In this document: positions 23,770 to 64,000 of the stretch, one piece after another
How the letters are laid out: every line of letters begins with the position of its first letter
Position numbering within the stretch: the stretch's first letter is position 1
Assembly (NCBI RefSeq): GCF_963676685.1
Contig: NC_092346.1
Span: 68,510,001 to 68,574,000, forward strand
Length of the DNA stretch: 64,000 nt
Reading direction: 5' to 3'
From: Mytilus edulis
Taxonomy: Eukaryota
Notes under the pieces: generated by a model
Seen by the model: only the letters and a program-made list of their open reading frames with translations
The model's database searches: none
Told to the model about the DNA's origin: nothing
Program-made: the position numbers and the translations under genes

Positions 23770-26700
23770 TCACTTTCCCCCATATTTTGCCAGTATTGAT
23801 TCTATTTCAATTTCTGCTGTCTTGTCCTTAAAAGAAATACACATCAATCAATGACATAGTAATTATATTTAACACTATAAAGTATGTAAGGATTTCTTAT
23901 TAACCTATACTATATTAATGAAACAAGGAACTTACACCTTTTGTATTTAAGAAGTAAAATTTGTGACCTGTAAGTATTTTTCAGGAAGCAAATAATAGAA
24001 CAACACTTATTACCAATAACCACCATTATCATCCATCAGCAACCACAATAAACATACTTAATTCAATAAAGTTAATTTTTTAAATTTCAGCTTTCTGACT
24101 GAAAGTTCATTTTTAGATTTTAATCATGGATGTATGTTTTCACACCACTTTAGTCTCAGAAGTATAAAGGTATAAACTGTACTACATGCTTGGGTCACAG
24201 TAATGCTGAACATAATGACATAACCATAACATAGATACAGGGAGATGTGGTGTCAGTGCCAATGAGACAACTCTCCATCCAAATAACAGTTCATAAAAGT
24301 AAACCATTATAGGTCAATGTACGGCCTTCAACATGGAGCCTTGGCTCACACCGAACAACAACCTATAAAGGGCCCCAAAATTACTAGTGTAAAACCATTC
24401 AAAGGGAAAACCAACGGTCTAATCTATATAAAAAACGAGAAACATGTATAAATTACATAAACAAACGACAACTACTGTACATGTATGAAGACATTAACCC
24501 ACTTTAAAGGTCAAGGCCATAGTACAAAGTAATAATAAACATTCTTTAGTATCCACAGAAATTCAAATAATGATGTGTACATACAAAATAATTAACTTCA
24601 TAACGACAAGTGTTAAACTTACATCTTGACTAACTACAGGCAGAAGACTGGCTTTTTCTAACCATTCTACAGCTTCAGGGTACTTTCCTAGTTCTACATA
24701 ACACTGAAAAGTAAACAAAAGTCGGCTGTAATCACTCTTATTACTAAACTAGATATTGACCCCCTCCTTTTAAATTTTGATGCAGGGGCACAATTGAAAA
24801 GAATAACATAAATACTGAACTCGTAAGCAAATTTAAAAAGGGAAAGTCCATAAAAACTGACCATAGTTTTGTTGTGTTTCCTTGAGTTGTGGTTTTCAAC
24901 TGCAGATTCATAAATTTCTATGTATACCAATTTTTTAAGATTGAGAAAAAAAATAATGGCATTTTCATGTATACATGTATTCATGGTTTTGCCACATTCT
25001 GAATACAAGCTTACAGAAACTTACTTGGTTGAATATTTAAATTCCTGATTTACCTCTTCCCACAAATATTTTTATTCTACAAATCAAAGTGATTTCAAAG
25101 TGCGTTATATATTGCAACTTTATATCTGACTGTGAAATTCATTTTTTATCAGATTTGCCACTAAGGAATATTGTATTTTCTTAACAATTTTGAACGTTCA
25201 TAGCAGATGCTAACCTTTCCAATGTATAATAAGTTTTCTTTCCATACTCCTGGGTTGAGCCTGTCTGCCTGCAATAAAAATTGTATATATTTAATCCCCT
25301 TTAAAACATTTATGTGTATACTGACCTAACATTAACATAAGAAACTAGGTATCAACAAGTCATAGTTTTGTTAAAAGCTAAAGAATTGATGCTGTTTTTT
25401 TAATACCAAAACATTCAGATCTGTTTTACAAAAATAAAAACTCCATTATTATTTTTGAAAACATAATATGTATAGAGGATTGCGTGAAATCATAAAAAAA
25501 AATAATCTTACATTTATATATGTTGTTCAACAATTGCACTAAAATAAAAACAAACAAAAATCTGGATGTACAGCTGTATTTCAAAGTTTTTATTTAATCA
25601 AAGTTGATTCTTCAGGGTCAGTAAACAAAAGCAGGAAAAATGGAGGTCATTATGAATGCATTTTGTTGAATTTTACCTATCTTTTAAATTAAATACTTTG
25701 GAATATAAATTTTGACAAGTGATAAATTTTTGGTGTTGATAAGTAAAACTTAAACAAAACTTATATCAGCAATCAAAATTTTAAATAAACCTCAATGATA
25801 GCTGATGAAATTTATAACCTTGAGGTATAATAATTCTTATAACCCAAAGATAGAAAAGATATGATTCAGTTGGGTTTTGAATTCCTAAATGTAAACTACA
25901 GATATTAGAAAAATTCAACCAACATGCAATGAATTAATTAACATTGTCAAACCTGATGCCATAATATTGAAAATTTTAAATTTATCAACAACGAAAATAA
26001 TGCCACACTCAAATAATGCTCAATCCTAAATTACTGAGTATAAATTAAGCATTCTTATTCTAACAAAATAGTGAATCAAAATAATTTGACAGGACATTAC
26101 CTCTAAAAAGTGTGTTAAAGCTTCACCAGCTGTTGAGGTAGGTGGTGTAGCAAATAGTGTAGCTGCTGCCTTCCTCTCTAACCAAGATAACATATATACC
26201 TACAATCAAATGTAAACGGTAAGTATCCTTGTCTCATGGGTTTAAGTGCTATTAAGAATGCATTGTGACGTCACAATTTTCATTGAAAAAGCATGCATAG
26301 GATGAATTCATATGACGTTCAAAAACATAAGATCTGACCATATATAATTAAGTCACAATTGCCTTCTCTTCAACACTTTCATTAAATTACATAATCAAAA
26401 GTATAAAACAAAAGCATCAAAATTATCCTCTCAAGTAAAAAGATTTTACAGAATTACCTACTATAAAGATTCATAATAACATAGAAACAATTACCACCTT
26501 TTAATTTTAGTTGTCTATAAATACAGTCCCAATTGTTAACAGTGTGTAAAGTAAAGGGAAGAAACTACACTGTCCAAAATTGGGGTAATCTTTTTTAAGG
26601 TGAAGTAGTGATTTGGTTCAGTTGAAAAAGGTAAATCGAATTAGTATGTCTGAAGCTTTCAAACTGAATTGAAGACAACCTCAACATAAAACTGTCCATA

Positions 26701-29700: not shown

Positions 29701-31274
29701 AACACTAAAGAAGGCAAAATAAATCCTCATATAAGGGCAATTACTCCTATAAAAAGTGAAAATCTAAATGTACATTTGTTCTAACTATATCAGAAAAATT
29801 TGACTTGTTAGTCATGTTAGTAGATCTTGCCTGGCTGGTCATTTTTGAAATTTAAAGTGTGTATTTATTTTCTTTAATTTTTCTCCTGCAAGGCAAAATG
29901 CAAAAAAATAATGGTAAAAATTGTCATTAAAGGGCAATAAATCCAATAAGGAGTCGTCAGAAGATTTCCTCCATATCGTCTTAATTGTAGATCTTGTTTT
30001 GTTGATCATTTTTTATTCTTTAAGTTTCTATCTATCTATTACGTTGTATAAATAAATAAATTTTGAAACATAGCGTTAAAGGCAAAATTGCAAAATATAT
30101 GTAAAAATTGTAATCGAATGGAAATAACTCTAACATGGAGTCGACTCACAATTTCAACCATGAAGACTACTCTGTAGAAAATGTCTTGCTGATTAGTTTT
30201 GCAATTTAAATTTTCTCTCTATCTATTATAATTTTTCAGATAATAGGCTTAAATGAAAGAAGATGGTAAAATTTTTCATATAAGGGCAATAAATCCTACA
30301 AGATTTCGTCTGACAGTTTTGACATAGATGGACAATTGGTAGAGCTCAACATTTCGAATATTTCTGTCCACGTCAGATTTTTTTCAATTTGACAAATTGT
30401 TAAAATCTGACGTGGAACTGAAAACCCACAGTAAGTTAGAGAGGAATTCTATCAAGATAAATGGGTGTGAGAGTCATAATGGTATGATGACTCTAGAGGT
30501 AGGGGAAGTGTGATGGGATTGCTTCCCTTAGAGAATGTGGTAGTAAGTCAGCCGTAAGCGGTTGAGGATGTTCTTTAGCTCAGTCGGTTAACACTCTGTC
30601 TCGTTAAACAGAGGTCCCAGATTTGAGTCCCAGTGGAGACATATATGATTTTGTATGTAGAATCATTCTCTCCGGTTACATACATATAATACTTATTTCC
30701 CCCTTTATCATGTATATAACCCTGAGCTGCGTCAGATAGAAATCGACCTTATGCAAGTGCATGTACACATATACATATCTAAGACTTTGATCGATTTTGG
30801 AATAACTAAGATATAAAAGCTGCATTTTGGTCTGTTCAAAAGGGTTGTCTTCTTATGAAAACCTACTTTTGAACAATTACAGACTTTCCGTAGAAATGAT
30901 TTTAACCCAAAATAGGTTAACAGAGGTATTGATTTTCGTTTGCATAAGGTCGATTTCTATCCGACGCAGCTCACCCTCATAAAATCGTACCCTCCTAGAG
31001 CATCTTCATAATTGTCAGTTTCATCACCACTACTTGCACTGATCACTGAATAGTATCCAGATCGCTTTTTTCTCCATTTTGACTTTCCTTCAAGTTTTTC
31101 ATTAAGAATACTGATTTCTGCTTTCAAAGTTTCTATTGACGACGACAGTCTATGGATTTCTCTCAAGAAAGCGCTCGTTAGTTTGAAATAAAGAATGGTT
31201 CCTCCTACACCAACACATAAACCTGTACCTAGCACCATCATGAGGTTGGAATTATACTTAAAAAAGGTTGACAT
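23770..31274 (-). CDS. RMDN3: Regulator of microtubule dynamics protein, RMDN3/PTPIP51-like (357 aa). Exons 31274-30991, 29440-29269, 28726-28554, 27578-27503, 27156-27079, 26199-26101, 25268-25215, 24703-24623, 23826-23770
   Basis: Nine GT-AG exons splice into a 1074-nt ORF. It has an N-terminal TM helix ([17 protein letters not shown]), a coiled coil, an acidic linker, and an RMD TPR domain ([67 protein letters not shown]). The TM plus coiled coil marks the RMDN2/3 type rather than RMDN1. Confidence 0.92.
30570..30641 (+). pseudogene. Degenerate tRNA-like sequence (tRNA pseudogene or SINE head)
   Basis: A box TAGCTCAGTCGG, anticodon-like stem CTCTGT/ACAGAG, degenerate B box GATTTGAGTCC; the acceptor stem is imperfect. 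Confidence 0.5.
30724..30972. mobile_element. MITE (GAG..CTC termini, Sola-like) with 5-bp TSD ACCCT
   Basis: 33-bp TIR GAGCTGCGTC(A/G)GATAGAAATCGACCTTATGCAA; ACCCT at 30719-30723 and 30973-30977. Confidence 0.85.
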
Positions 31275-31611
31275 TGTGTTTATTTTTATATTTTAAGTAT
31301 TTTTTTTAGTTAAAAAAAAATCGAAACTTGTGAGGGAGGAAAACCGGAAGTTTAAAACAATTTGGATGAAAACCAACGACGGTCCTAATTCCAAAAACAA
31401 AATATACAGAAAACAAACTGTATTCATTATTTTAAGACTTTTAAATTCAAAAACTCAAATAACCCTACTATAAGGTTTTAAGAAGTTTGAAATAACTTGG
31501 ATTAAAATTACACCAGTAAAAGTTGAAATATCTGAGTTGTTGCAAATCCTTGTGACAAGGGAGACAACTAGGACCAGCAACAGATTTTGACATTTAGATC
31601 TTCTCTTTGCA
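31275..31611. promoter_or_regulatory. Putative bidirectional promoter for RMDN3 and GCHFR, with an ETS/GABP-type site ACCGGAAGT at 31343-31351
   Basis: Only 337 bp separate two divergent start codons, and a perfect ETS consensus is present. Confidence 0.65.
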
Positions 31612-34600
31612 ATGCCATATATTATCATCAGTACACAAATACGGCTGGTAATCTTTTAAAACATACTTATTTCAATCATTCACTTCACAAAAATATTGAA
31701 GCAAGATATTAGAGGATGAAATCCATTTTGGTAGTCAGTCAGATATTACTATTATTAGTCCAAATATCGTCGTGTCATATGTTTTCGTATGTCATATGTT
31801 TTCGTATCAACCACATTTCGTCGGTTTCGACTGCATACGCGTACATTGTGGCATGTTTTTCTGTTTCTATATTTAGAACAACAACACCACTACAACTTGA
31901 TATATTTAAAACATATTCAACGTCGCTTTTTAAAGACGTTAGAACAAATTAAATAAAACTGACCTATTTAGCCATTTTTATTTAATGTCAAAATAAAGCA
32001 TCACTAGAATAGTTGTGGAAAAAAAATCTGAAGGGTTAAAATAAAGTCCAGATATGTTTTTTGCAAGTCAGACACCGGATCTTCAAGACATATGACTGTC
32101 ATGTGTTTTTTTGGCCGTTTTAATTACAAACCATCGAGTTAAAATTAGCAGGGTTCTTATATAAAATGGTTGTTCAAAATCCAACTATTCAATATTTCAT
32201 TGACAATTTTTTTTTATACATCCTTGATACATGAAGATGAAAACAGTCTTAACTTTTTATATTTAATCATAAATTTTGAAAACTGCATTTTATTTTAGAA
32301 AAAATAATGTATTTTGTACAAACCAGGTGCCAATCTGAAAATTAATCAAAATCTAAAAATTTCATCACACGAAACACCAACCTTACACTATTTACTAGTA
32401 ATTTTTAGTACTGAAAAGTATTTAATAACTTTTTTTATGATTCAAGCGATCACCAGAACCACGACTTTAGAAAAAATTTATTTCCGGATTTTGTAGTCAT
32501 TTCCTGTCCGTGTACTGATCCAATTTTTATTTCATACGAAAACATATGACGCCGTTTTTTTTGACATACAAAAATCGCAAAGTAATCGGAAACAGTAAAA
32601 AATCGTAGAAATCATTGACAAAAAAACTAGATACCTAAAATCAATCTACAGGACATGCTTTTTAAATCTGAGTAAACACCTAAATAAAAACTCAACAGTA
32701 AAAACCGTAAGCAGTGAAAATTGTTATTAGTACGAAAACACATTACACGATGATAATTATGACGTCTTGAAAGACTTTGATATTTTTTTTCTTTGACGCC
32801 TTACTTCGAAGTAAGGCTTTCGAAGTAAGGCGTCAAAGAAAAAAAATATCAAAGCCTTTTAAGACGTCATAATTATTTGGACTAGTCAGATATATGACTC
32901 TATAGCACGCCTGGTAAACCATCTAATCTCAACCAAATGGTTGAGACGGGTTGAGACGGAAAAAAAGTATTCTGGCACTTCCTGTTGAGCTTTTCTGGTT
33001 CAAAATATTCAAAATAAACACAGGGTAGGTCGAATTTTCGTCGATTTACTGAAAATCAATGATTTTTTTGTAAAATCGGAGAATGTCATGCCATAGATAA
33101 ATGATAATTGTAACTTATATGTCTCTTCTGGGTTTAAAATATTTTAAATTGAAGTCACAATCACTTTTCTCCCACGGATTATAATGTTTACATTCTTTAA
33201 ATCCGATAGAACTGCTATGCTATTAATGACTTAGCAAGAAAATATGTCAATTATTTGTGTTTTTTTTAGGCTTTCCAATACCACGTCTGTAAATAGCACA
33301 AATATTTGTTTGTCAAGCATACTCTGAGCAGAAAAATAAAAAAATATAAATGGTTGAGATATAAAGGTAGTGGTTGAGTCTTTCTGTCACAATGTTGAGA
33401 CTTTCTGGTTGCGTTGTACTATTCGAGTTTACCTTTTATTACGGTTAACCTGATTCATGTTTTCTGTCTGTGGTAACATAAAATCTAAATACAGATACAA
33501 TTTTAAGCATGGCCGATAGAAAAATGCATGCCTTACAAATATAAATAAGATTATTTCACAATGGTTATATTTATTAATATGACTTGGATGAATTCGATTC
33601 CTAAGACATTATTTAATGCCGAAAATGCGTACATTTATAAAGAAATAAAATAGTTAAAAACTAAACAATCGAACAGGACCCCTTTTCTAGGTTTATTTTT
33701 TCGTACACATTATTTCAGGTGGTGATAATTTAAATGTGAGTAAAAGATGTCATTTTTGTCATTATAATACTTACCACAAAAAAAATATGATTCGATTTTA
33801 AAATTAGTTTGTAAGTATTATAAGTGACGTTCAACTTAGTGTAATCACAGGTGTTGTATTGAAATAATTAAAACTTAGATGTTTGTTCACAACTGCATTC
33901 AGGGCACATCCTTAATATTTGGTAGTATTCAGCAACATTTATATTATAACCATGTGTTATTACAGATACTTTCATGAGTTGTCTTCTCTTTAATCCTTAA
34001 ATTTACTAAATCTGTAATAACATATGTTTATTTGTAAAATAAATCATAAATATTTTAATTTTTAGTGGGCTCTAGGTAGTCCAAATAATTATGACATCTT
34101 GAAAGGCTATTATAATTTTTTTCTTTGACGCCTTACTTCGACGTGTCAAAGAAAAAAATATAATAGCCTTTCAAGACGTCATAATTATTTGGACTGGGCT
34201 CTAGGGAACTCTTGAAACTTTGCGCAGAAACAAAATGCATTAGCCTTGATAACTAATTTTTGATTTAGATTAATACATTTTTCATTAACCATGGTAAATC
34301 AATGAGATGAGTCTTTTAAGTGATTAACTTAGCTGTAATAACAAGGCTTAGTTATTAAAGGCATGTAACTTATTATATGAGACACTTGGGAATTACTAGT
34401 CCGGCGGCTACAAGCATATTTCAGACGCATTGTGCACATCCTGTTACAAGCATGAAATTTGGCATAGACCTTCCTCAACTATTACTCTTTTATTTCAGAT
34501 AGGGAGGCATTTGAAAAAAATGTCTCACTTCCGGTAAAATCCAAAATGGCGGACGTCATACTTAAATCAGCCCAATATCGAAGGCTAGCGTGTAAAAATG

Positions 34601-37600
34601 TGTTATTATCATGCTACTATCATAATATTTGGTACAGACCTTTGTTTTTTACTACTTTTGGATAAATTAAATAGATTAGATGTCTTCAGAAACCCCACTT
34701 TCGGTTAAAATCCAATATGGCTGACATTGTACTTAAATAAGCTTATTTTTTAGGGAGGGTAACTGAAATGTGTTTTAACGTATTGCTACTATCATTACAT
34801 TGTGTATGAACCTTTCTTTGGTGTTTCTGATGGATACAATGCATAAGACATATGTCTTAAAAACCCTTTCTTCCGGGTATATCCAAAATGGCGGACAGAG
34901 AAATATCAATTTTTTATTCAAATTTTCATTTTTTTCAAAATGTAAAGAAATGATTTTATTTTGTGCTGGTCATTAAACTTTTGGCTTAAAGTTATCCTCA
35001 AAACCACTTATTCTAGCATGTTGTAAATATTTAGATATAAAGTTGACACTTCCGGTTAAAAATATGACGTAAATTTCAAAGATGAGTCCTCAATCTATTT
35101 CTTCGATTTAGAGTTTTGGATAGATTGATTAAAACAAAATAAAATCACTATAGTACTAAAAATTATTTAAAATTATTACTATTTGGCCAAGAATACATGT
35201 TTATTCACAGTCACCATGACATGCACACATCGCAGTGCACGGGATACCCGATTTTCCACATTAAAAATGACCGCGGAATCCTTTCTTACATCCACAATGT
35301 ATAAGCTTTTGACAAAATGATGAGGCCTCAAAAAGAGTTTTTCAAAAGTTATCCTCTTTGTCCCTGCCTGGAGTGGGTAGCATAAGAGCCAATCCCAAGC
35401 TCGTCTCCCTAAACACCTGTCTAAGTATATTGCATTATTTACATGCTGGAAAAGACTAGACCAAGTTGAGGGAATAGCCTCGGAAAGCCGTCCCTGTTGC
35501 GCACATAGTTATTTTCTTGCTTCGTTAACCATGTTATACCCATCTGCTAAGTTTGTGCGATCTTACAGTAAAACCCCGGTGATTTAGTCTGATTAATCAT
35601 CATTCTTTTTGTTAAAGTCACATCTTCAAATGCAATCAATGTCTCCCACATAGTTTTTTCCCCCCTTTCAAGCAAAGAGAGAACCATATCACAACTTGTA
35701 AAGACATGGATAACAATAAGTGTTTCAGATCACCCAGATCACTCATTGCCTAGTGCATTTGAAAGGCCATTGATAGATATTAATCTAAAGTCTTTTGCCC
35801 TCCCAAACACAACGTCTACCCCTATGTCACGGAATAGCGAAACAGTATTGACAACATCATCATTAACGACTGTTCGAATCATGACTCGTTTAAGTGCGTG
35901 TTTCACTGCATCAGACACATGCACCATGATTTTAGTGTCTGCCTCTAAATGTGAACTTGGTGCTGAACTTGAAATACATTACGTGGTGGATAAGATAGAA
36001 TATCCTGACCATTTGTTGCTATAACTACCATACGCATCCAAGACTTCATCCACTCGTATTTCAGTTTCAAGGTATTTTATTTAGGTAAGGACATAATACC
36101 CAATCAGCATACTCAGTAGGCCGCAATTCACAATCGGAGAGCTGATTTCCAACATTTACAAAGACTGTGATATTGTTTCTCACATCTTAATAAATTCTGC
36201 AAAAACACATATTTTCTTGCCTTGTTAACCTAATCTGTTTTTTTTTTTTTATCTTCCAACAAAACCACGTATCGTTTTCAATGACATTAAACATGAAATC
36301 CATATGGTGATGTTGGCTGGTCAATCATCATTCTAAATGCTATAGTCACATCTTCAAACTCCATTAATGTCACCAACGCAGTTCCTTTTCCAGCGAACGT
36401 GTTATCTTTTAATGCCTAGTGCATTTGAAAGGTCATTGATTGATATATATCTTATACTTTTCCCCTTCTAAATGCAAACCAAAGTTTGTCTGCCCTATGT
36501 CACGGAATAGCGAAACAGCAATGACATCAGTATCGACTGTTTGAGTCATGACTCAGTTAAGTCTATGTTTCACTGCATCAGACACATCCATCTTGATTCT
36601 AGTGTCAGTCTCTTCGTGTAAACATGGTGCTAAACTTGAAACATCATCAAGTGGTGGATAACACTAAACATCCTGAGCATTTGTTGCTTCAACTACCTTG
36701 TACTCAAAATTGTATTGAGCAAGCTCCTGTGAATGAAAACTTAAAAGTTCTTTCTTACTGTCGTCATCTCTCAGAAAACTTTCCCATCTTTGAGGATGTT
36801 TTTAATCCTGGGTTCGTCTGTGTATTCCCTTTCCCCTAAATGTTACCCTTGCTTCTTTTAGCAGCTTTAAAACTACCAGTATTTCGCTATTCCGTAACAA
36901 AGGGGCAGACGAACTATTGATTGTATTTGGGGAGGCAAAAATCTTTGGATTAATATCTATCAATGGCCTTTCAAATGCACTAGGCAATGAGTGATCACAC
37001 ACATTTATTTCTGACCAATACCTTATGACGGGTTGTGATACTGTTCTCTCTTTGCTTGAAAAGGAAAAAAAAGACTGCGTGGGAGACATTAATGGTATTT
37101 GAAGATGTGAATTTAACATAAAGAATGATGATTGACCAGCCTAAATCACCGGGGTTGTACTGTACAAACTTATCAGATCTAACATGATTAACGAACCAAG
37201 AAAGTCAATTTTTGCACAAAAGGGAAATCTCATTTTAAGTGAGGCTATTCCCACGACTTGTTCTAGTCTTTTCAAGCATGTAAAACGTGTAATATACTAA
37301 TGCAGGTGTTTAGTGAGACGAGCTTTGGATTGACTCTTATGCTACCTATAGTCTTGTCACTAATGGATTGCGAAGGGACAAAGAGGGTCCCTTTAAAAAA
37401 AACTCTTTCTGAGACCTCATCATTTTTTCAGAAGCTTGTACATTATGGATGTAAGAAAGGATGCCGCGGTTATTTTTAATGTGTAAAATCGGGTCTCCCG
37501 TGCACTGCCTTGTGTGCATGTGGTGGTGATTGTGAATAAGCATGTATTCTTGGCCAAATAGAAGTAGTTTTAAATATTTTTTAGTACTATAGTGATTTTA

Positions 37601-40600
37601 TTTTGTTTAAATCAATCTATCCAAAACTCTACATCGAAGAAATAGATTGAGGACTCATCTTTAAAATTTACGTCATATTTTTACCGGAAGTGTCAACTTT
37701 ATATCTTAGCATTTACAACATGCTAGAATAAGTGGTTTTGGGGATAACTTAAAGCCAAAAGTTTAATGACCAGCACAAAATAAAATCATTTTCTTTACAT
37801 TTTGAAGAAAGTTGAAAATTTGAATAAAAAATTGATATTTCTCTGTCCGCCATTTTGGATACTTCCGGAAGTAAGGGTTTTTAAGACATATGTCTTATAC
37901 ATTGTCTCCATCAGAAGCACCAAAGAAAGGTTCATACACAATGTAATTATAGTAGCAATACGTTAAAACACATTTCAATTACCCTCCCTAAAAAATAAGC
38001 TTATTTAAGTACAATGTCCGCCATATTGGATTTTAACCGGAAGTTGGGTTTCTGAAGACATCTAATCTATTCAATTTATCCAAAAGTAGTAAAACACAAA
38101 GGTCTGTACCAAATATTATGATAGTAGCATGATAATAGGACATTTTTACACGCTAGTCTTCGATATTGGGCTGATTTAAGTATAACGTCCGCCATTTTGG
38201 ATTTTACCGGAAGTGAGACATTTTTTTCAAATGCCTCCCTATCTGAAATAAAAGAGTAATAGTTGAGGAAGGTCTGTGCCAAATTTCATGCTTGTAACAG
38301 GATGTGCACAATTTTTTACAAAGCCGCCGGACTATACTGGGAAGCTTGCGCAGAACCTCATTACATGCTCTGATCATTACTTCTTACAATAAATTAAAAT
38401 ATATTGTTATTAAGCATGATCTATGTCTGAGCAAATGCTTTGAAGTGATGTAGAGAAGCTGTAATAACACCCTTTAGTTATTACAGGCATATTTTTTCTG
38501 TAATAACGCCCTTTAGTTATTACAGGCATATTTTTTCTGTAATAACATAGGTATACTATGCATGATTGGCAAACTATGAACTGTTATATCTTTCTATAGT
38601 TAAGTATACATAAAGACAATAGTAATATCAATAGAACTTGTATAAATTTTAACAAAACTAATGATGTATATTGTTCCTTTGAAACATGTAACATACATAT
38701 GTTATCACAGTTCTTTGATTTTTTTGTCCACAATAACAAGCATATGTTATTTTTCTCTAATAACCCTATAGAGTTATATCTTTGACTGTTAGTGATTACA
38801 ACCGAAATAGATCGTATGCTGTATCAGATCGACCCCCAGCAATCCGATCCTATAATACCTGGTGCCTACGACTCTGTAGATTTTCTAGAACATTGCGGAA
38901 AAAGCCCAACGAAAATCGTTGAAACGGATAATAATGCCGGTTTAATTACGCCAATTTGCGCAAAGGAAATTGCAACTGACTCGAACCACAGGCACTAGAC
39001 GTTCTGTCAATAGTATAAAAATATTGGAAGAAAATAGTGTCCATATATATAATAATTATATATATGGACACTATTTTCTTTCAACATTTTTATACTATTG
39101 ACAGTGGACACTATTTTCTTTCAATATTTTTATACTATTGACAGAACGTCTAGTGCCTGTGCTCGAACATAAAATGCGATTCATATAGAGACAAACTTCT
39201 GGGAGGCATAAACAAAAACGCTGACAACGTAGCTACTAATTTGGCCAAAGCAATAAAACCTGCCTTTCAAATCCCGGTACAGATTAACGGGGTCCAAAAT
39301 GATCCCAAACCAGAAAATGATAACTTTACAGGTGTAAGCCGAAAACGAACGTCCAGATTTTACATCACAAACATTGATCCTTCTTCAAGTAAGGCGGGCC
39401 CATTGAGCTTTGCGAAACATCGTGGAGTTAATATTACGCACGTCATACTGTTCAAACCACGTAAAGGCAGAATTTCTGGTAGAATAAACGTTACAATGGA
39501 ATCTAAACCGTTACTTCAAAACAGTGAGTTTTGGCCCAACAACATAATCTGTCGACCTTGGTATAATAATCGTGCATGGAACGATCGGCTTAACAATGAG
39601 CAATCAACTGAAACACATCACTATCAAGATGGCTCTTAGCTACATTCATGTACATTTTGGATATTTAATAACTACAATCATGCTTTCTCTAGTGACTTGG
39701 AATGTACGCGGTATCATGTCATCAACAGTTTGTCTAACAGAATTTTTTAGGTATACAAATTGTGACATTGCCGTATTATCGGAGCACAAGTTATTTAACC
39801 ACTCTCTAAAATTCCTGAACACATTAGACACTAATTACCACAGTATAGGTATAGCAGATACAAATATTAACATTGAAACCTGTAAATGTGGAAACGGTGG
39901 CGTTGCAATTATGTACAAGAAAACATTGAAATTCAACATAAAAAACCAATTAACTGTCCCGTCTCTGAAAGATTATTAGGAATTGAAATACAGTGTAACG
40001 AAAACTACTCTATATTTGTTTTCTCGGTCTACTTACCCGCAGACAGTAACATGCAAAATTATAAATATGAACTGAACATTGTTGAAGATTATGTCAACAA
40101 CTATGCAAAATTTGGTCCCGTAATTGTAGCTGGTGATTTCAACACTAGTTGCAGAGTAACCGACCTTGAACGAACTAATGTGAACAAATCCATCATTTTT
40201 TCAGATTTCATATTAAGGAATAACATAGTTCCGATTAATGCTAGCAGTCTTTGTGATCCTTCATCATTCACGTTCATTCCGACTCGTACTGTACTGGATT
40301 ATTTCCTTGTCAGCGAGGAATTGGCTAATGACGTAACTTTTTGCGAAAATATTCCTGAAAGAACTATGAGTCTTACTTCAGACCACCTACCTGTTTTCTT
40401 ACAACTGAGTATACCGTGTGTCGCTAATTCGTCGAATGGAGGTAATACTGTTTGGTCGTCGTGGCGCAAAGCATCTGATAGTAGTTTGCATGCCTACAAC
40501 GAACTTACAAATGAAATAGCAGTTGATCTTTTGGATATGCCATTAAGCACATTTCTAGATTTAGATACACTAGATAGCAAACTTACAGATAAACTGAAAG

Positions 40601-43600
40601 AATGTGCAAACATAACAATACCGTCAGGTAGCTTTACTCCCAACACTAAGCCGTACTGGTCAGATCAAGTAAAACAAGCACACAAAGCTGAACGCTTAGC
40701 TTGCAGGACATGGATTAATCATGGTAGACCCCGAGGGAAGTCCTTTCCTTCCTATGTTGAATACAAATCTGCGAAAAACGAATTTCGTAATCATCAACGT
40801 TTTGCATATAACGCCTTTGCTAATACTTACCATGAAATCGAAGAAGCAGCCGAGTGTGATTTTAGACTCTTTTGGTGCTTAATATCCCGTCGAAAATGCC
40901 GCAAAACCAACCAAATTTCAGAAATACTGCATGATAACCTGACTGTAAATCTCCTGAAGATATTTCCAATGCATTTGCTGACTTTTATGCAGGCGTGTAT
41001 ACTCCAACAGAAAATGCTAAATTTGATAGTGATTTCAAGGCCTACGTGACTGAATTTGTAGATCGCACACTCGAGTCATGTGCAAAATATAATGGCCTCC
41101 TCCCAGGAGGGGAAATAAACATAGTTGAAATTGAAACAGCGATTAGAAACCTCAAGCTACAAAAGGCACCAGGCTATGACAAGCTACAAAACGAACATGT
41201 TAGATACAGTGGAAGTAAACTACAAACAGTTATTCTCCGTATTTTAAATGCAGTGATTCGGTTTGGTCGTATTCCCTTGTGTTGGAAGCATGGTTTATTA
41301 ATCCCATTGTAAAAAGATAATGGAAAGTGCAAACTAGCGCCCGAAAACTATCGTCCTATATCGCTATTGTAATACTTTACAAGCTGTTCGAAACTGTATT
41401 AAAGAAGCGACTGTAACCTCTTTGGAGAATGATTTATTCCCAAATTTACAACAACAAGGTTTTCTAAATGGACTAAGCTGTATTACTGCCTCCTTCAACT
41501 TCCAAGAAACTATTTATTACCTCTTAGAATTAGGCTGCAAATTGTTCGTTGTGTTTTTGGACAGTTCCCGTGCATTTGATACAGTGTGGCATAGTGGCCT
41601 AGGGAATTTCTCGCTACATTGAAGACCTGTTGGTACACTTCTGCTGGTTTTTTTTTCTATGGTCGGGTTGTTGTCTCTTTGGCACATTCCCCATTTCTAT
41701 TCTCAATTTTATAATATACAAACTATCCGTCTTGGTATAAATAGTAAAGCAAATATTTCAAATATTCATACAAGTAATCCATCATTTGCTGACGACGTAG
41801 TGTGCATCGGTACCTCACCACAAAGACTCCAAATTTTGTTAAATTGTGCTTACGATTACTCACTTAGATGGAGATTTGAGTTTAATCCGCTAAAATCTGT
41901 CATTTTATGCTACAAAAATGACTTAGAACACGTATTTAATCTTGGAGATAATGATGTTAACATTTTAACTGAGACAAGGCACCTTGGAATATTAAGAACG
42001 GTTGACTTATCGCCAAGCTCAGATATTCAGCTTTCATGTAGGAAGGGCCGAAATGCATATTTTGCTATAGCTATATACTGGAACTTGTTTGCTAAATCCC
42101 TTAACTGTGTGTAGCATCTACAATAAAATCGTAATACCTACGGTACTGTACGGATGTGAGCTTTGGAATGGGTTAAAAATGAAAGACATAACTTCTCTTG
42201 AAACTTTCCAACATTTCATTGTGAAACATATTCAAGGCCTTCCTAGACGAACACGGTCAGCTTTGTGCGAATCGATGATCAACCTCGAGAGACTACCAGT
42301 ACTAGTTGAAAAACGGAAACTGAAGTTCCTATGTAAACTATGTGAAATGAAGGCGGAATCTCTTACAAAACAAATTTTCATCTACAGACTATACCAGTTT
42401 TTCGGAGATACATGTAGAAAACAATATGGATTCATCCCAGATGTGATTAACATTTTATCAAAGTTTTCCCTTTTGAAATATTTGACAAACTATATGTTTA
42501 CAGGCACATTCCCGACCAAGTTTCAGTGGAAAAACATTGTCAGTAGTGCTGTTGACCCAATTGAAAGACTTCAAAAGGAAGAGTGAATGCGCAGGGACAA
42601 CGATTTCGTCAAATTCTTAAGATTATCTGAAAACAATAACTATGATTTCCTGTGGCAATATGCAAAAATTAGTGGCAGACTTTTAACTGCGAAACATATA
42701 GCTAAACTCTGGACTACTCCTCCTACTAGCGGAAATTGCAAACTGTGTGGACACTTTGTTCTAGATATACTGAACCACCAAATATGCATGTGCACAGAAC
42801 TTCAATCACAGAGACTTTCACTTTATAACAGATTAACTGAATTAACTAGTTTCAATTTCATGTACACAACGGTTTCAAAATTGGATGAGCGCTTCTCAGA
42901 TCTTTTGCTTGGCAACCATGAAGATCTCTGTGACATTTTAATACCGGAACATCGTTTGGAAGCCCTTAACGAGGGATTTTCCTTCCTAAAAAATTGTAGA
43001 CTGTAAATACTTTTCCATTCAAAATATTAAGTTATTGACATTTCGAATTATGTGATTTCAAAACTTTTCTGATTGTACATAATATTTGTATTTTGTCTTA
43101 TGTCAATCTCCCATAGGAGGAAATAAAGTATGATGATGATGATGGTCAAAGGCAGTAGAACATCAGTGGCGGATCCAGGGGGGGGGGGGGGGGTTCCGGG
43201 GGTGCGCACCCCCCCTTTATTTTTGCCGATCAATGCATTTGTATCGGGACATATGTTTTGCACCCCCCCTTTGCCCTGGGTGCCCTGGGTTAGCACCCCC
43301 CCTTTCGAAAATTCCTGCATCCGCCCCTGAACATCCATTTAGTTAAATACTGTGGATTCTTTTATTTTCGTTCACTTGGGGATCGTATGGATAGTAAAAA
43401 AGTGATTGCAATCGACTAGCAATGGATTGTTGAGACTTGATATATGTTCATACATTGTAGAAAATTGAAAATAAATGAAAAAAAACCACCAAACAATTTT
43501 TTTTTTTAGTGAGGTCAAAAAAAGGGGGGTCCATGCCCCAAATACCTGTGGTCTAAATGTCTTGAGGAAGGTTCAATTTAAAATTATCCTTTGATAAATA

Positions 43601-46600
43601 CTTATTGATTGGCAACCAAGGGACTCTGATTACTGTTTGGTTCATGAAAGTGAAAGTCTAGGTCAGTTAAATGAATGTATTTATCAAAGTTGTACAAAAT
43701 CGAACATGTTAAATGTTATTTGATTATAGTTGACGCTTGTTTTGTTAATTATAGTAATTTTTTAGTTCGGTTCGATTGGGATATTGCATTCATGCACGAG
43801 TGAACTCAGGTGGTTTAAAGTCATTCGAGCCATTGTACTCAAAGTGTACAGTAGCATTTTGCCAAATAAATAATATTATTAATCATATTATTTATTTTCA
43901 AATTTGTGGACCACAAGTATGGGGAAACCAGTACAAGCTGCTTAAAAGCTATATATATATTTATATGAACTTTCAACAATATTATACTCATATTTATAAT
44001 AAAATGTGTGCTTGTCTCTGCAAGTGGCGTCTCCCATGTAAGAGTTTGTGGTTATTTGATAAATATTTTATGTTCATTTGAGTTTACGAATTAGAATTTA
44101 AGTAATATTAGTGTTCCATGTTTCTTCTGCTAACTAGTGTTAAAAACCTGTTATGTATCCCATTTAGCTGTCTACAATTTGCTTTACCTATGTTTCTTCT
44201 GGATTTTTCATTCTTATATATATGTATTTGTAGGAAAGTGGTCCAACATTTGTTGGTGATGAATGGAGTGAACCCAAGTTAATGGAATATCTTGGTGCTA
44301 CCAAAATGAAAGCTCTTGGAAATAATTTGTAAGTCTTTATTTAAATTGCTAAACTAAGCTGATTATTCTATTTTTGTTCAACTACAAAAAATTCATGGAT
44401 TACAACTTTCATTCACAAGACACTGGTATTATTTTTTTTTGGTACAAAGATATACACATATTGTTTCTTTCACAAAGGAATGAATGCAGCTTATGATGTG
44501 AACTTGTTAGGAGGTCATTATCACCTGACCTTGACTTCTTTCTTAATTATACTCAACTTACTCAAGTGACCATTTTAAGGTTACTTTGATTGGATATATG
44601 TATCTCAATAGATTTATTATGTAACAGACACTACAAGACAATTAAAACAATAGACAATATTTATTAGCACAAACACATTTACACTAAATGGTTATGGCAT
44701 ACAAAATTTAGACAATAAACTGACAATAGTTAAATTGATTAGAATTATAAGTCAATACAATTTGGAAAATTAAATGAAATTCTATTGATGAGTACATGAC
44801 CTTGATAATCTATGACTTTCATCATCTACACTTATTCATGTTAAGTTTTTAATTAGCTTACTTTTTCTTTACTTTACACAGTAAGTGAGTAATATTATTA
44901 GTTACATAGTGTGCTAGTGACCTAATACGGTATATATGGGGTCAGTAAATTCCATATGGGGTGAGAGCGAAGCTCGAATCCCCATATGCAATTTTCTGAC
45001 CCCATATACCGTATTACGTCACTAGCACACTATGTAACAAATTTATCTTACCAACTATCTTAATGTGTGAAATTTAGACTAGTGACCTATCAAAATGAGC
45101 AAGTCTTCTGTACTGTTAGCATTAAAGATTACTTCCATTGATTCTACAAAAACAGATGCCAACAAGAACAACTTGTTAGGTTTAAATATCTTTTATGAAT
45201 TTATTTCCATCGTAATCATCAATTTCTTCGTCTGTTGAAACCTTTTAGATTTTTTCTCAGTGCCCTTTGTTTTTATAAAGGGAGGTAACACCAATACTAA
45301 CCGTGTATGAAATAAGCCCTGCCTCCTTTCTTACCTAATATGGAATATAAAGGGACGTAACTCCACTACTAACTGTGTATGACATAAGCTCCGCCTCCCC
45401 ACTAACCTAATATCAAATATACACGGTTTGCATGCGGACGCTTTTAACCAATCATATTCCTAGAAATGTATAGGAGGTAAGATAATTGTATATGTGCATA
45501 GATTTGTGTAAAGCATACACATATCATGATCCTAACTCTTTTTAATGATACTAAATTTAAACAGTTTGAAAGTTTAGCCAATCAGTAAGACAGCAAGTTA
45601 TCCTGTAAGACCCGATGTTCAGTTGACCTAATTTTAGACTTTGAAGGACAAGTACTTCTCTAGATTTAGAATTAAATTATAAAAGCTCACTTAAATGTTG
45701 AGGTCAGCTATTATAGATGCTATCCAAATGAAATCAGCTTTGATATTAATATAGGGACCATACAGCCTTCAACAGAAATAAAGTAAATCATATAGAATTA
45801 CTAGTTATTGTATGCCGCTACATTGACAACAACACTTAAGTAAACTGCATCTGGTGAAGTTGAAATCATCCCTTCCTAAATTTTACGGACGCCATCACGA
45901 GTTGGTTGACCGTTATGGAATAACCGTTTCACAAATGATATCGGATATGTTCCTTACGTCGTAACTACAATCCCCTTCCCTTTCATGAATATGACCTACC
46001 GAATTAGACTATTTACCGGATTTGTAATGACTTAAGCAACACGACGGGTGCCACATGTGGAGCAGGATCTGCTTACCCTTCCGGAGCACCTGAGATCACC
46101 CCTAGTTTTTGGTGGGGTTCGTGTTGTTTATTCTTTAGTTTTCTATGTTGTGTCGTGTGTACTATTGTTTTTCTGTTTGTCTTTTTAGCTCACCTGGCCC
46201 AAAGGGCCAAGTGAGCTTTTCTCATCACTTGGCGTCCGGCGTCCGTCGTCGTCGTCCGTCGTCGTCGTCCTGCGTCCGGCGTTAACTTTTACAAAAATCT
46301 TCTCCTCTGAAACTACTAGGCCAAATTTAACCAAACTTGGCCACAATCATCATTGGGGTATCTAGTTTAAAAATTGTGTCCAGTGACCCCGCCAACTAAC
46401 CAAGATGGCCGCCATGGCTATAAATAGAACATAGGGGTAAAATGCAGTTTTTGGCTTATAACTCAAAAACCAAAGCATTTAGGGCAAATCTGACATGGGG
46501 TAATATTGTTAATCAGGTTAAGATCTATCTGCCCTGAAATTTTCAGATGAATCTGACATTCCGTTGTTAGGTTGCTGCCCCTGAATTGGTAATTTTAAGG

Positions 46601-48956
46601 AAATTTTGTTGTTTTTGGTTATTATCTTGAATATTATTTCAGATAGAGATAAACTGTAAAAGGCAATAATGTTCAGCAAAGTAAGATCTACAAATAAGTC
46701 AACATGACCAAAATGATCAGTTGACCACTTTAGGAGTTATTGCCCTTTATAGTCAATTTTTAACCATTTTTCGTAAATCTTAGTAATCTTTTAGAAAAAT
46801 CTTCTCCTCTGAAACTGCTGGGCCAAATTATTTGAAACTTGGCCACAATCATCATTGGGGTATCTAGTTTAAAAATTGTGTCCGGTGACCCCGCCAACTA
46901 AGCGAGATGACCGCCATGGCTATAAATAGAACATAGGGGTAAAATGCAGTTTTTGGCTTATAACTCAAAAACCAAAGCATTTAGAGCAAATCTGACATGA
47001 GTAAAATTGTTAATCAGGTGAAGATCTATCTGCCCTGAAATTTTCAGATGAATTGGACAACCTGTTTTTGGGTTGCGGCCCCTGAATTGGTAATTTTAAG
47101 GAAATTTTGCTGTTTTTGGTTATTATATTGAATATTATTATAGATATAGGTAAACTGTAAACAGCAATAATGTTCAGCAAGGTCAGATTTACAAATAAGT
47201 CAGCATGACCAAAATGGTCAGTTGACCTCTTTAGGAGTTATTGCCCTTTAAAGTCAATTTTTAACCATTTTTCGTAAATTTTATATATCTTTTACTAAAA
47301 TCTTCTTCTCTGAAACTGCTGTGCCAAATTGATTCAAACTATGCCACAATCATCTTTGGGGTTTCTTGTTTAAAAAATGTGTCCGGTGACCTGGCCATCA
47401 AACCAAGATGGCTGCCACGGCTAAAAATAGAACATAGGGGTAAAATGCAGTTTTTGGCTTATAACTCAAAAACCAAATAATTTAGAGAAAATCTGACATG
47501 AAGTAAAATTGTTAATCAGGTGAAGATCTATCTGCCCTGAAATTTTCAGATGAATTGGACAACCTGTTTTTGGGTTGCGGCCCCTGAATTGGTAATTTTA
47601 GGGAAATTTTGCTGTTTTTGGTTATTATATTGAATATTATTATAAATATAGGTAAACTGTAAACAGCAATAATGTTCAGCAAAGTAAGATCTACAAATAA
47701 GTCAACATGAACGAAATGGTCAATTGACCCCTGTAGGAGTTATTGACCTTTGTAGTCAATTTTCAATCTGCTTCCTTTGTTTAATATTCACATAGACCAA
47801 GGTGAGCGACACAGGCTCTTTAGAGCCTCTAGTTTATTTTTAGCCATGGCGTTGTCAGTTTGTTTTAGATTTATGAGTTTGACTGTCCCTTTGGTATCTT
47901 TCGTCCCTCTTTTATTGTCGACATGTTTCGCCGTTTAGATCGGCTTCATCAGGACAAAGTATACAAAATTAGAACCCCTGAAGTACAAAAAAATGGTATC
48001 ATGTATGTGACGTCATAATTGTCCATTGTTGATGTTGCTATGGGATACTCTATATCATTATGTAATGTTGAACAGAAAATGAATCAAACATAGTACAATG
48101 CAAATGAAGTTACTAAATTTAGAGTTAATCTATAATTTTTCGAATTGTCTTTAACTTTAAAATGGTTGTAAACTATTATAACGGTATAATTAAGTGTAAA
48201 AAATAAAATGTGTTTTTAAATAGAAATTAAATTTGTGTAACATAAATGTAAGTACAATGTCAGTGTACAGTTTTATAAAGTTTCTTCCTAATTTGGACAA
48301 CACTTATAGGGCACACCCCTACCACTTCGACTGGGTTAAAGACAATTCGAAAAATTATAGATTAACTCTAAATTTAGTAACTTCATTTGCATTGTACTAT
48401 GTTTGATTCATTTTCTGTTCAACATTACATAATGATATAGAGTATCCCATAGCAACGTCAACAATGGACAATTATGACGTCACATACATGATACCATTTT
48501 TTTGTACTTCAGGGGTTCTAATTTTGTATACTTTGTCCTGATGAAGCCGATCTAATCGGCGAAACATGTCGACAATAAAAGATGCAGTTTACTTAAGTGT
48601 TGTTGTCAATGTAGCGGTATTTGATTTTTTTATGTGACAACCCTGCATACCATCTGGTATCCACTTAAGGGAACTCTACCAGCACAAAACATAAGAGGCG
48701 TTGGTTCAGCAGCTCTTTATTAGTTATTGTATGGTATGAAAGTTTGTATAGTGGAATAAAATACTATCTTGTACGGTATTAATACATGTACCTGAAATGA
48801 TCCTGTTTTATTTACAGCACAGAGTGGAGAAGTGAAGATTGTGCAAGAGTAGTGCTTAACAAACTAGAAAAGAAAGGTTACAAGGTAGTGTCTATGACTG
48901 GGGTTGGACAAACCTGTATTTGGACTTTAAACAAACCTGAGGAGAGTACAAGTTAA
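31612..48956 (+). CDS. GCHFR: GTP cyclohydrolase I feedback regulatory protein (89 aa). Exons 31612-31647, 44234-44328, 48818-48956
   Basis: Spliced product is MPYIIISTQIRL|ESGPTFVGDEWSEPKLMEYLGATKMKALGNNF|TEWRSEDCARVVLNKLEKKGYKVVSMTGVGQTCIWTLNKPEESTS. It matches vertebrate GFRP along its whole length (MPYLLISTQIR..GPT.VGD..ALGNNF..SMTGVGQT). AATAAA at 48993. Confidence 0.96.
31756..32884. mobile_element. Academ-type non-autonomous element (TAGTCCAAATA TIR) with a terminal hairpin of about 120 bp
   Basis: TIRs at both ends; the palindrome at about 32753-32876 is homologous to 34077-34196. Confidence 0.65.
34077..34196. mobile_element. 120-bp palindromic Academ-type MITE with 9-bp TSD GGCTCTAGG
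   Basis: Near-perfect hairpin; GGCTCTAGG at 34068-34076 and 34197-34205. Confidence 0.85.
34397..38334. mobile_element. Fold-back Academ (XPG-type) DNA transposon derivative with inverted arms of about 1.4 kb and 3-bp TSD TAC
   Basis: TAGTCCGGCGGCT termini and TAC on both flanks. Decayed transposase motifs HEETDTR, TVDTDV, TGCDTV, KKTAW and C-terminal CKKGC..LPCTALCACGGDC occur in both orientations. Confidence 0.88.
38987..39161. mobile_element. Palindromic MITE (P-element-like CA..TG termini) with 7-bp TSD CTCGAAC, inserted in LINE ORF1
   Basis: TIR CACAGGCACTAGACGTTCTGTCAATAG; CTCGAAC at 38980-38986 and 39162-39168. Confidence 0.87.
41602..41712 (+). repeat. Short interspersed repeat fragment inserted in the LINE RT domain
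   Basis: GGTCGGGTTGTTGTCTCTTTG(G/A)CACATTCCCCATT also occurs at about 49420 and, degenerate, at about 61085. The RT frame WHSGL..YKL resumes after it. Confidence 0.75.
43164..43329. mobile_element. GC-rich hAT-like MITE with 5-bp TSD AACAT
   Basis: CAGTGGCGGATCCAGG / CCTGCATCCGCCCCTG termini; AACAT at 43159-43163 and 43330-43334. Confidence 0.8.
44901..45038. repeat. Hairpin of about 138 bp, part of a larger MITE-like element reaching about 45485
   Basis: GTTACATAGTGTGCTAGTGAC..GTCACTAGCACACTATGTAAC inverted repeat. Confidence 0.8.
45852..47910 (+). mobile_element. 3' fragment of a retroelement (RT C-terminus, probably Penelope-like Naiad type), itself split by a Helentron
   Basis: Encodes VKLKSSLPKFYGRHHELVDRYGITVSQMISDMFLTS*. 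The 3' UTR motif CCGGAGCACCTGA is also inverted at about 54035-54095 and 57810-57870. Confidence 0.6.
46184..47834 (+). mobile_element. Helentron-type non-autonomous element (HINE) with three internal repeats of about 502 bp
   Basis: 5' AGCTCACCT with nearby inverted GTGAGCT, (CGT/CGTC)n microsatellite, units at 46294, 46796 and 47297, 3' AGGTGAGC plus hairpin AGGCTCT-TTT-AGAGCCT, inserted in a T run. Confidence 0.9.
47915..47957 (-). ncRNA. Minimal type I hammerhead ribozyme (Penelope-type), inverted copy
   Basis: Reverse complement reads UUGUC-CUGAUGA-a-GCCG(aucuaaa)CGGC-GAAA-CAUG-UC-GACAA. Confidence 0.75.
48533..48575 (+). ncRNA. Minimal type I hammerhead ribozyme (Penelope-type), sense copy
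   Basis: UUGUC-CUGAUGA-a-GCCGAU(cua)AUCGGC-GAAA-CAUG-UC-GACAA. Palindromic stem III ACAUGU, GUC cleavage site at 48570, one extra A after the core. Confidence 0.78.
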
Positions 48957-63278: not shown

Positions 63279-63585
63279 ATGAAGATAAGATCTTTTTTTA
63301 TTCACATTTTGTATATTTTTAATGGATCTGCATGCTCTTCTTCATTTCAATCCGACACATATGAGGTATTGAAAGGAATCAAATTGTCGAAAACTTATTA
63401 CACATTTTTATCAAATCATAACAGTACGAATACATGCGCATTGTACTGTTTAGCTGACATAGCATGTGTTTCAGCGAATTACAACTTAGTGACAACGCAA
63501 TGTGAACTAAATTCAAAAAGTCCGCTAGATGAATCAGCCAACATAGAAGAAGATAACGAATGGAAAGTGTTGTATTCAAAAGAAA
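63279..63585 (+). CDS. First coding exon of a secreted PAN/Apple-domain protein; the gene probably continues beyond the window
   Basis: Signal peptide MKIRSFFIHILYIFNGSACS, PAN cysteine pattern CALYCLADIACVSANYN....CELNS, and a phase-1 donor AAA|GTAGGT at 63586. Confidence 0.75.
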
Positions 63586-64000
63586 GTAGGTACAAAAAAT
63601 AGGGTATGTTGAAAAAAGTATAGTTGCAAACATATACAAATGAATTCCAGCATAAAAATCACTGACGCATCACTAGAGAAAATTAGATAGAATCATCTGA
63701 ATACCTGCCTCTTTCATAATTTTTACATAATATACCAAGTACGATTCTTTTATGTAATATCTACAGCAATTCAGGTTTTATTTTTCCAGGAATCCCTTTG
63801 ATTATTTTAAATGAGCGTTTCTGACTTCAATTACTACTATACACTTTTAAATGAAAAAGAAAATAACATTTCTTGACACCGAATAGTATTTCTGTAACAA
63901 CATTCAACGCTCAATTCAAAACATTTGGTAGCCAATGATGTATAAGACCTTAATTTTTCATATCCTCGCAACGAAAATGCCTTAAATAGACTGTTTGAGG

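What the first reader, a model, noticed from the sequence alone, without database searches (positions are those of the whole stretch)
23770..48956. Head-to-head RMDN3-GCHFR pair apparently conserved between a mollusc and humans
Seen: the RMDN-type gene (-) and GCHFR (+) start 337 bp apart, with an ETS/GABP-type ACCGGAAGT site between them and no TE in the gap despite TE-filled introns on both sides. Known (from memory): human RMDN3 and GCHFR are adjacent, divergently transcribed neighbours on 15q15. Inference: this is a microsyntenic pair retained since the protostome-deuterostome split, perhaps held by a shared promoter. It would link an ER-mitochondria tether with BH4 feedback control, and it identifies RMDN3 as the positional orthologue.
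Basis: partly seen in the sequence, partly recalled or inferred. Interest (0 to 1): 0.7.

Follow-up and report, generated by a model that had tools for sequence, protein, structure and literature searches.

The report
Ancient head-to-head RMDN-GCHFR gene pair
Two unrelated genes, one for a predicted mitochondrial tether and one for a regulator of pterin synthesis, start back to back 337 bases apart in this mussel and are also neighbours in sea anemones and land vertebrates, so the pair likely predates the cnidarian-bilaterian split and is likely held by a shared promoter, one more case of a known kind of ancient gene pair.

Summary
Confirmed and older than proposed. A 9-exon RMDN gene (-, 357 aa) and a 3-exon GCHFR (+, 89 aa) have start codons 337 bp apart. 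Spliced contigs of both begin in or at the edge of the gap in 4 of 4 runs of one lay. An anthozoan-like contig has the same head-to-head pair 102 bp apart. Nematostella gene ids run RMD2-like, GFRP, DNAJC17, the order published for tetrapods. The pair is published as split in zebrafish and stickleback. Corrections: (1) the mussel gene is co-orthologous to vertebrate RMDN2 and RMDN3 (mussel+RMDN3 clade rejected, AU p=2e-8); RMDN3 is only the copy that kept the neighbour. (2) The ETS site is absent from the anthozoan gap, and 5 of its 6 copies in the window lie in a repeat. (3) A repeat-free 337-bp gap is unremarkable. (4) Human orientation and the roughly 8-kb spacing are recalled only. Best reading: a shared divergent promoter makes the junction hard to break; no functional link between the proteins is shown. 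It fits the known class of conserved ancestral microsyntenic pairs; my searches found no paper on this pair, but the key catalogue's supplement was unreadable.

The parts
23770..31274 (-). RMDN2/3-type gene, 9 coding exons (31274-30991, 29440-29269, 28726-28554, 27578-27503, 27156-27079, 26199-26101, 25268-25215, 24703-24623, 23826-23770), 357 aa
   Evidence: model identical to P0136; Pfam RMD1-3 weak on exon 3; close homologue P0125 vs human RMDN3 TPR 7cc7 E 5.9e-52; tree
30991..31274 (-). RMDN coding exon 1: hydrophobic N-terminal segment (aa 11-29, KD19 1.78), likely coiled coil, acidic FFAT-like motif at aa 88-94
   Evidence: hydropathy, recalled FFAT pattern; splice to exon 2 in contigs of 5 of 5 contig runs
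31275..31611 (.). 337-bp inter-ATG gap: both 5' leaders and the likely shared divergent promoter; single copy
   Evidence: RMDN contigs end at 31320, 31321 (also 31273, 31239, 31581); GCHFR contigs begin at 31346, 31415, 31522, 31532
31343..31351 (+). ACCGGAAGT, ETS/GABP-type consensus (label recalled), 22-30 bp upstream of the commonest RMDN contig end; function untested
   Evidence: not present in the anthozoan gap
31612..48956 (+). GCHFR (GFRP) gene, 3 coding exons (31612-31647, 44234-44328, 48818-48956), 89 aa, single copy
   Evidence: exon 1-2 splice in 4 of 4 runs
34429..38312 (.). inverted-repeat element in GCHFR intron 1 (arms 34429-35842 and 36882-38312, 87% alike) holding the other 5 ACCGGAAGT copies
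39548..42114 (+). broken LINE-type remnant in GCHFR intron 1 (endonuclease E 1.3e-11, weak reverse transcriptase E 0.01)
30723..30973 (.). small multi-copy element with 34-bp terminal inverted repeats in RMDN intron 1
   Evidence: 168 reads of X24 pile on its end with unlike loose ends

Best explanation
The mussel RMDN2/3 and GCHFR genes are a divergently transcribed pair that likely dates from before the cnidarian-bilaterian split and is likely kept together because both genes start from one short shared promoter. Shown: the arrangement in the mussel, spliced transcripts of both genes beginning in or at the edge of the gap, the same arrangement on an anthozoan-like contig, and neighbouring ids in Nematostella. 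Inferred: a break in the gap would cut the promoter or leader of both genes, so the junction persisted while other neighbours (DNAJC17, RAD51, CYP1C) were shuffled. Inferred: vertebrate genome doubling copied the block; RMDN3 kept GCHFR and RMDN2 lost it; teleosts split the pair, most simply by a further doubling and reciprocal loss, which needs no break in the promoter. The proteins probably act separately (predicted outer-mitochondrial VAP-binding TPR tether; predicted GCH1 feedback regulator).
For: Gene models. In 4 of 4 runs from 4 studies both spliced mRNAs are present; GCHFR contigs begin at 31346-31532 and RMDN contigs end at 31239-31321, two of them at 31320/31321. Of 4 metagenome loci with the GCHFR exon-1 pattern, L005 has a divergent ATG 102 bp away; its ORF matches Nematostella RMDN2-like at 41% over 127 aa, E 7e-27 and scores 31.4 bits on an N-terminal profile built without cnidarian rows, against a maximum of 4.8 among 195 scored of 200 shuffles. 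Nematostella look-up table: RMD2-like NVE14744, GFRP NVE14745, DJC17-like NVE14746 (PMC10946136 supplement rows). Order FAM82A2(RMDN3)-GCHFR-DNAJC17 in Xenopus, anole, chicken, mallard, mouse, human (PMC3229566 passages) and goat (PMC10763158 passages). No HPD[KR] motif on 120 kb downstream or 60 kb upstream of the window and no DnaJ hit nearer than 3.9 Mb: the head-to-head partner stayed, the tail-to-tail one apparently left. 5'-5' pairs are the best-kept class of ancient pairs (PMC3514665 passages).
Against: Contigs cannot show true start sites or strand; the one standard RNA-seq raw-read run and two miRNA-labelled runs laid no read on either exon. One contig (X1) runs from spliced RMDN across the gap to 31581, so leaders may overlap or starts may be broad. 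No motif is shared between mussel and anthozoan gaps beyond one 8-mer of chance length; the anthozoan gap has an E-box, not ETS. The human genes are recalled as about 8 kb apart and were not found among human divergent pairs under 1 kb. DNAJC17 also stayed beside GCHFR in Nematostella and tetrapods without sharing this promoter. Pair split in zebrafish and stickleback; no RMDN in the 605 and 808 bp upstream on vertebrate-type L006 and L007 or the 464 bp on L004. No amphioxus, echinoderm, annelid or arthropod gene order was obtained (empty). Orientation in Nematostella itself is not in the table.
Confidence: 0.6

Rival explanations
1. Passive survival: the pair is ancient, but persists because 100-350 bp is a tiny target for breakpoints in slowly rearranging genomes, not because of shared regulation.
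For: DNAJC17 is kept beside GCHFR in Nematostella and tetrapods too. No conserved promoter motif. Short spacing predicts order conservation in general, and only 8.5% of human short divergent pairs were functionally related by GO score (PMC2871058 passages).
Against: Both genes' contigs begin in or beside the same 340 bp, so a break there is unlikely to be neutral; adjacency also persists in tetrapods where the recalled spacing is kilobases.
Confidence: 0.25
2. Functional co-regulation: the two genes are kept together because they serve one process, handling lipid radicals at ER-mitochondria contacts (RMDN) and setting the BH4 antioxidant level (GCHFR).
For: RMDN3 is reported to move lipid radicals at contacts (title only, seen in a reference list); BH4 as a lipid antioxidant is recalled. 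One human variant is listed as an eQTL for both genes in NK cells with the same sign, from two different studies (PMC13558399 supplement rows).
Against: No paper in the library holds both PTPIP51 and GFRP. The same variant raises GCHFR in CD4 memory cells and affects many neighbours. Teleosts separate the genes. RMDN2 lost the neighbour.
Confidence: 0.12
3. Independent coming together of the two genes in mussel, anthozoans and tetrapods.
Against: Same two single-copy orthologues adjacent in three distant lineages, same orientation in the two read directly, a third gene shared by two. Chance false discovery for such pairs was put under 0.0002 at four lineages.
Confidence: 0.02

Closest known systems
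Conserved ancestral microsyntenic pairs (CAMPs), 5'-5' co-regulated class, e.g. HSPE1-HSPD1 (Irimia et al. 2012, PMC3514665)
   Same: Two unrelated genes adjacent in distant phyla, head to head, short spacing; about half of the 595 CAMPs predate bilaterians.
   Different: Shown here in three lineages, not the four required; no shared function or co-expression shown; whether it is already among the 595 is unknown (supplement unreadable).
Tetrapod RAD51-[CYP1C1]-RMDN3-GCHFR-DNAJC17 block on human 15q15 (PMC3229566)
   Same: RMDN and GCHFR adjacent; DNAJC17 next in Nematostella.
   Different: Described for vertebrates only and as context for CYP1C; the mussel shows no DNAJC17 nearby and has lectin, BEACH and PAN-domain neighbours.
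RMDN3/PTPIP51 and RMDN2 (Pfam PF21033; PDB 7cc7)
   Same: N-terminal hydrophobic segment, acidic FFAT-like motif, C-terminal TPR domain; both human paralogues are described as outer-mitochondrial FFAT proteins (PMC7705450 passages).
   Different: Pre-duplication single gene, shorter linker (357 aa against 409-443 in four named vertebrate rows); VAP binding and location untested.
GCHFR/GFRP (Pfam PF06399; PDB 7acc, 1jg5)
   Same: Pfam and PDB matches, same exon borders as vertebrate-type L007; one GCH1 locus on the same contig 29 Mb away.
   Different: 12.6-kb repeat-filled first intron; activity untested.

Membership tests
CAMP (Irimia 2012) | two non-paralogous genes | tested here: met
   PF21033 and PF06399, unrelated families
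CAMP (Irimia 2012) | [quoted passage not shown] | tested here: inconclusive
   three lineages: mollusc, cnidarian, vertebrate; amphioxus look-up empty
CAMP (Irimia 2012) | orthology of both genes across lineages | tested here: met
   RMDN2/3 clade 100/100 apart from RMDN1, with mussel, Nematostella and vertebrates; GCHFR single copy in G000
bidirectional-promoter pair | opposite strands, start sites within 1 kb | tested here: met
   ATGs 337 bp apart; the longest spliced contigs of both genes begin within the gap; contigs, not mapped start sites
bidirectional-promoter pair | one element drives both directions | not testable with these tools
   needs a dual reporter
bidirectional-promoter pair | same holds in human (under 1 kb) | tested here: inconclusive
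   no row among human divergent pairs under 1 kb, where RMD1-CPNE3 is listed (files may be cut); about 8 kb by recall
bidirectional-promoter pair | conserved ETS/GABP site | tested here: not met
   absent from the 102-bp anthozoan gap
RMDN3 (one-to-one orthologue) | groups with RMDN3 to the exclusion of RMDN2 | tested here: not met
   AU test rejects, p=1.9e-8, 45 rows x 236 columns
RMDN2/3 subfamily | N-terminal membrane anchor plus FFAT-like motif plus TPR domain; outside RMDN1 | tested here: met
   separate RMDN1 on G000:C12
RMDN2/3 subfamily | binds VAP at ER-mitochondria contacts | not tested
   inferred from motif and family only
GCHFR/GFRP | GFRP domain over Pfam cut-off | tested here: met
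   39.3 and 57.3 bits against cut-off 25
GCHFR/GFRP | BH4 and phenylalanine dependent control of GCH1 | not testable with these tools
   needs an enzyme assay

The most novel reading that the evidence does not exclude
RMDN2/3 and GCHFR form a co-regulated unit older than bilaterians that couples lipid-radical disposal at ER-mitochondria contacts to the setting of BH4 antioxidant supply, an unrecognised link between contact-site tethering and pterin metabolism.
Probability: 0.12. Interest if true: 0.7.

Novelty: new member of a known kind. Interest (0 to 1): 0.37.

Why it matters
It adds a pair, and with DNAJC17 a three-gene block, that likely existed before the cnidarian-bilaterian split. It fixes the history of the RMDN family: one RMDN2/3 ancestor beside GCHFR, separate from RMDN1, with RMDN3 as the copy left in place. 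The 100-340-bp invertebrate gaps are small enough for a direct test of why ancient head-to-head pairs persist. Hundreds of such pairs are known, so a specialist would find it neat rather than surprising unless a functional link is shown.

Tried and rejected
Run search: no RNA holder listed on record; kinds are guesses. Raw reads of X24, X21, X22 laid nothing on either exon, so no start-site map. Homologue searches with single exons returned only 4 and 3 close proteins, so accession-number adjacency across species could not be tested. ESM Atlas on the L005 ORF: only weak bacterial hits under 0.8; direct BLAST of it to the mussel protein E 0.048. GCHFR exon-1 pattern in genome contigs and viral contigs: 0 and 0. 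Supplements: Irimia 2012 unreadable; amphioxus atlas 3 files, no hit, one file not searched; PMC13508932 2 files, no hit; PMC7817982 uninformative, the positive control HSPE1 was absent too. No human coordinates found in print. RMDN evolution search and PMC13243920 passages gave nothing on invertebrates. Equal longest-contig length (93,237) for an RMDN fragment and a GCHFR exon of another mussel hints at linkage but was not verified and is not counted. Rejected: the repeat-free gap as evidence; the shared 8-mer; the J-domain at C3:64.6 Mb as DNAJC17 (reads as DNAJC3-like by recall). DNAJC17 was not located elsewhere in G000, so its absence nearby rests on motif and Pfam scans that can miss short exons; the Pfam scan covered 107 ORFs, a subset of the 267 listed plus 4 of L004.

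Full report
Observation. The window holds an RMDN-family gene on the minus strand (nine coding exons, all introns GT-AG, 31274 to 23770, 357 aa) and GCHFR on the plus strand (three exons, 31612 to 48956, 89 aa). The RMDN model is identical to the RefSeq Mytilus edulis protein P0136. GCHFR exons 2 and 3 pass the Pfam GFRP cut-off and exon 2 matches human and rat GFRP structures. The start codons are 337 bp apart. The gap has one match in the genome. Each gene is single copy; the only other RMDN hit is an RMDN1-type open frame on C12.

Transcripts. The run search listed no holder on record as RNA, so the contig runs are RNA by guess, but their contigs are spliced. In 4 of 4 runs from 4 studies both genes appear as separate spliced contigs: RMDN contigs end at 31321, 31320, 31273 and 31239; GCHFR contigs begin at 31346, 31415, 31532 and 31522. 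A fifth run has one spliced RMDN contig that runs to 31581 and no GCHFR piece; three raw-read runs laid nothing on either exon. Contigs cannot fix start sites, but most of the gap is covered by leader sequence in some run, and two studies stop within one base of 31320.

ETS site and repeats. ACCGGAAGT at 31343 lies 22-30 bp upstream of that point. It occurs 6 times in the window against 0.18 expected, because 5 copies sit in the arms of an inverted-repeat element in GCHFR intron 1. Background is 7 in 244 kb, about 1% for a 337-bp stretch, so the site is a fair candidate, chosen after the fact. The repeat-free gap is not informative: 48% of 337-bp windows in the locus have no local-repeat hit, by a test that undercounts repeats.

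Other lineages. A degenerate GCHFR exon-1 pattern found 4 metagenome loci. On L005 a divergent ATG lies 102 bp from the GCHFR ATG. Its 136-aa exon has a hydrophobic segment and an acidic tract, and its best match among the session's RMDN proteins is Nematostella RMDN2-like (41% over 127 aa, E 7e-27). It scores 31.4 bits on a profile of 25 non-cnidarian-like N-termini; the reversed sequence scores 12.5 and shuffles at most 4.8. I read L005 as anthozoan from this likeness; only exon 1 of each gene is on the contig. Its gap has an E-box and no ETS site. L006 and L007 (vertebrate-type GCHFR, for L007) and L004 (unplaced) show no RMDN in 605, 808 and 464 bp upstream. In the gene table of a Nematostella atlas (PMC10946136, supplement rows only), RMD2-like-1, GFRP-like-1 and DJC17-like-1 carry NVE14744, 14745 and 14746; the one NV2 id between the first two also maps to NVE14745. 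That these ids follow position is my assumption from recall. PMC3229566 (passages) gives RAD51-[CYP1C1]-FAM82A2-GCHFR-DNAJC17 in Xenopus, anole, chicken and mallard, the same without CYP1C1 in mouse and human, RAD51 with FAM82A2 apart from CYP1C with GCHFR and DNAJC17 in zebrafish and stickleback, and FAM82A1 (RMDN2) beside CYP1B1, read by the authors as a genome-duplication pair. Goat has the same order (PMC10763158 passages). Human strands and the roughly 8-kb spacing are recalled; no call gave them. In PMC2871058 supplements (6 files searched, possibly cut) no GCHFR, GFRP or RMD3 row appears, while RMD1-CPNE3 does. Around the mussel pair I found lectin, BEACH and PAN-domain genes and no sign of DNAJC17.

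Orthology. A maximum-likelihood tree of 45 chosen TPR regions (12 RMDN1 rows from the 120, the rest and the 150; the others were left out) separates RMDN1 from an RMDN2/3 clade at 100/100. Vertebrate RMDN2, RMDN3, lamprey and hagfish form a 100/100 clade that excludes the mussel. Seven vertebrate rows were labelled by BLAST likeness, not by name. A forced mussel+RMDN3 clade is rejected (AU p=1.9e-8). The mussel gene is thus the pre-duplication gene; RMDN3 is the paralogue that stayed beside GCHFR.

Mechanism. Shown: arrangement, splicing, leaders in the gap, presence in three lineages. Inferred: one compact divergent promoter makes the junction costly to break (0.6). The teleost split fits loss after genome doubling, since zebrafish chromosomes 17 and 20 are recalled as duplicates; not tested. 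Rivals: passive survival of a small target (0.25), functional co-regulation (0.12), convergence (0.02). Protein roles follow from family knowledge: both human paralogues are described as outer-mitochondrial FFAT proteins (PMC7705450 passages), the mussel protein has the anchor and an FFAT-like motif, and a GCH1 locus is in the genome.

What is known. Irimia 2012 (PMC3514665, passages) lists 595 such pairs, 54.8% head to head in human; its table could not be read, so prior listing is open. Searches for print: RMDN3+GCHFR 6 papers, passages read in 3, FAM82A2+GCHFR 1, full names 2, listing only, PTPIP51+GFRP 0; the 25 papers listed in each held no GCHFR. None seen describes an invertebrate pair. 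Verdict: real, older than proposed, a new member of a known kind; interest 0.37.

Noticed in passing
L002:1198-2118 (G000:C12:30365237-30366157): The RMDN1-type gene is one uninterrupted 306-aa frame, possibly a retrocopy that replaced the intron-bearing parent; no other RMDN1 locus was hit.
   Followed up: partly
window 34429-38312: Element with 1.45-kb inverted arms (87% alike) built partly of ~170-bp units carrying ETS-like and YY1-like words (labels recalled); could seed promoter-like sites.
   Followed up: partly
window 31404 and 31597: Indel variants in the gap: 14 nt absent from the window allele but present in 4 of 4 runs; 5 nt in 2 of 5 contig runs.
   Followed up: partly
window 7596-7958 and 17917-18249 (+): Two related C-type lectin exons, about 81% alike.
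   Followed up: no
window 63270-63602 (+); L009:7609-8043; L021:2087-6343; L015:5210-5959; L018-L019: PAN-domain exons downstream, a BEACH-domain gene upstream, a C2H2 zinc-finger ORF, and a Helitron with long open frames.
   Followed up: no
window 54114-55925: Array of about 52 copies of a 34-35-bp unit.
   Followed up: no
window 30575-30640: By eye a tRNA-like SINE head in RMDN intron 1; not tested.
   Followed up: no
L004:900-1970: Compact, divergent GCHFR (perhaps a sponge, by impression) with a tail-to-tail sirtuin and an unidentified divergent ATG frame about 210 bp upstream that does not score as RMDN.
   Followed up: partly
G000:C3:39.66-39.68 Mb: GCH1, the target of GCHFR, lies on the same contig 29 Mb away.
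   Followed up: no
P0193: An RMDN2/3-side protein in the filasterean Pigoraptor suggests the RMDN1 versus RMDN2/3 split predates animals.
   Followed up: partly
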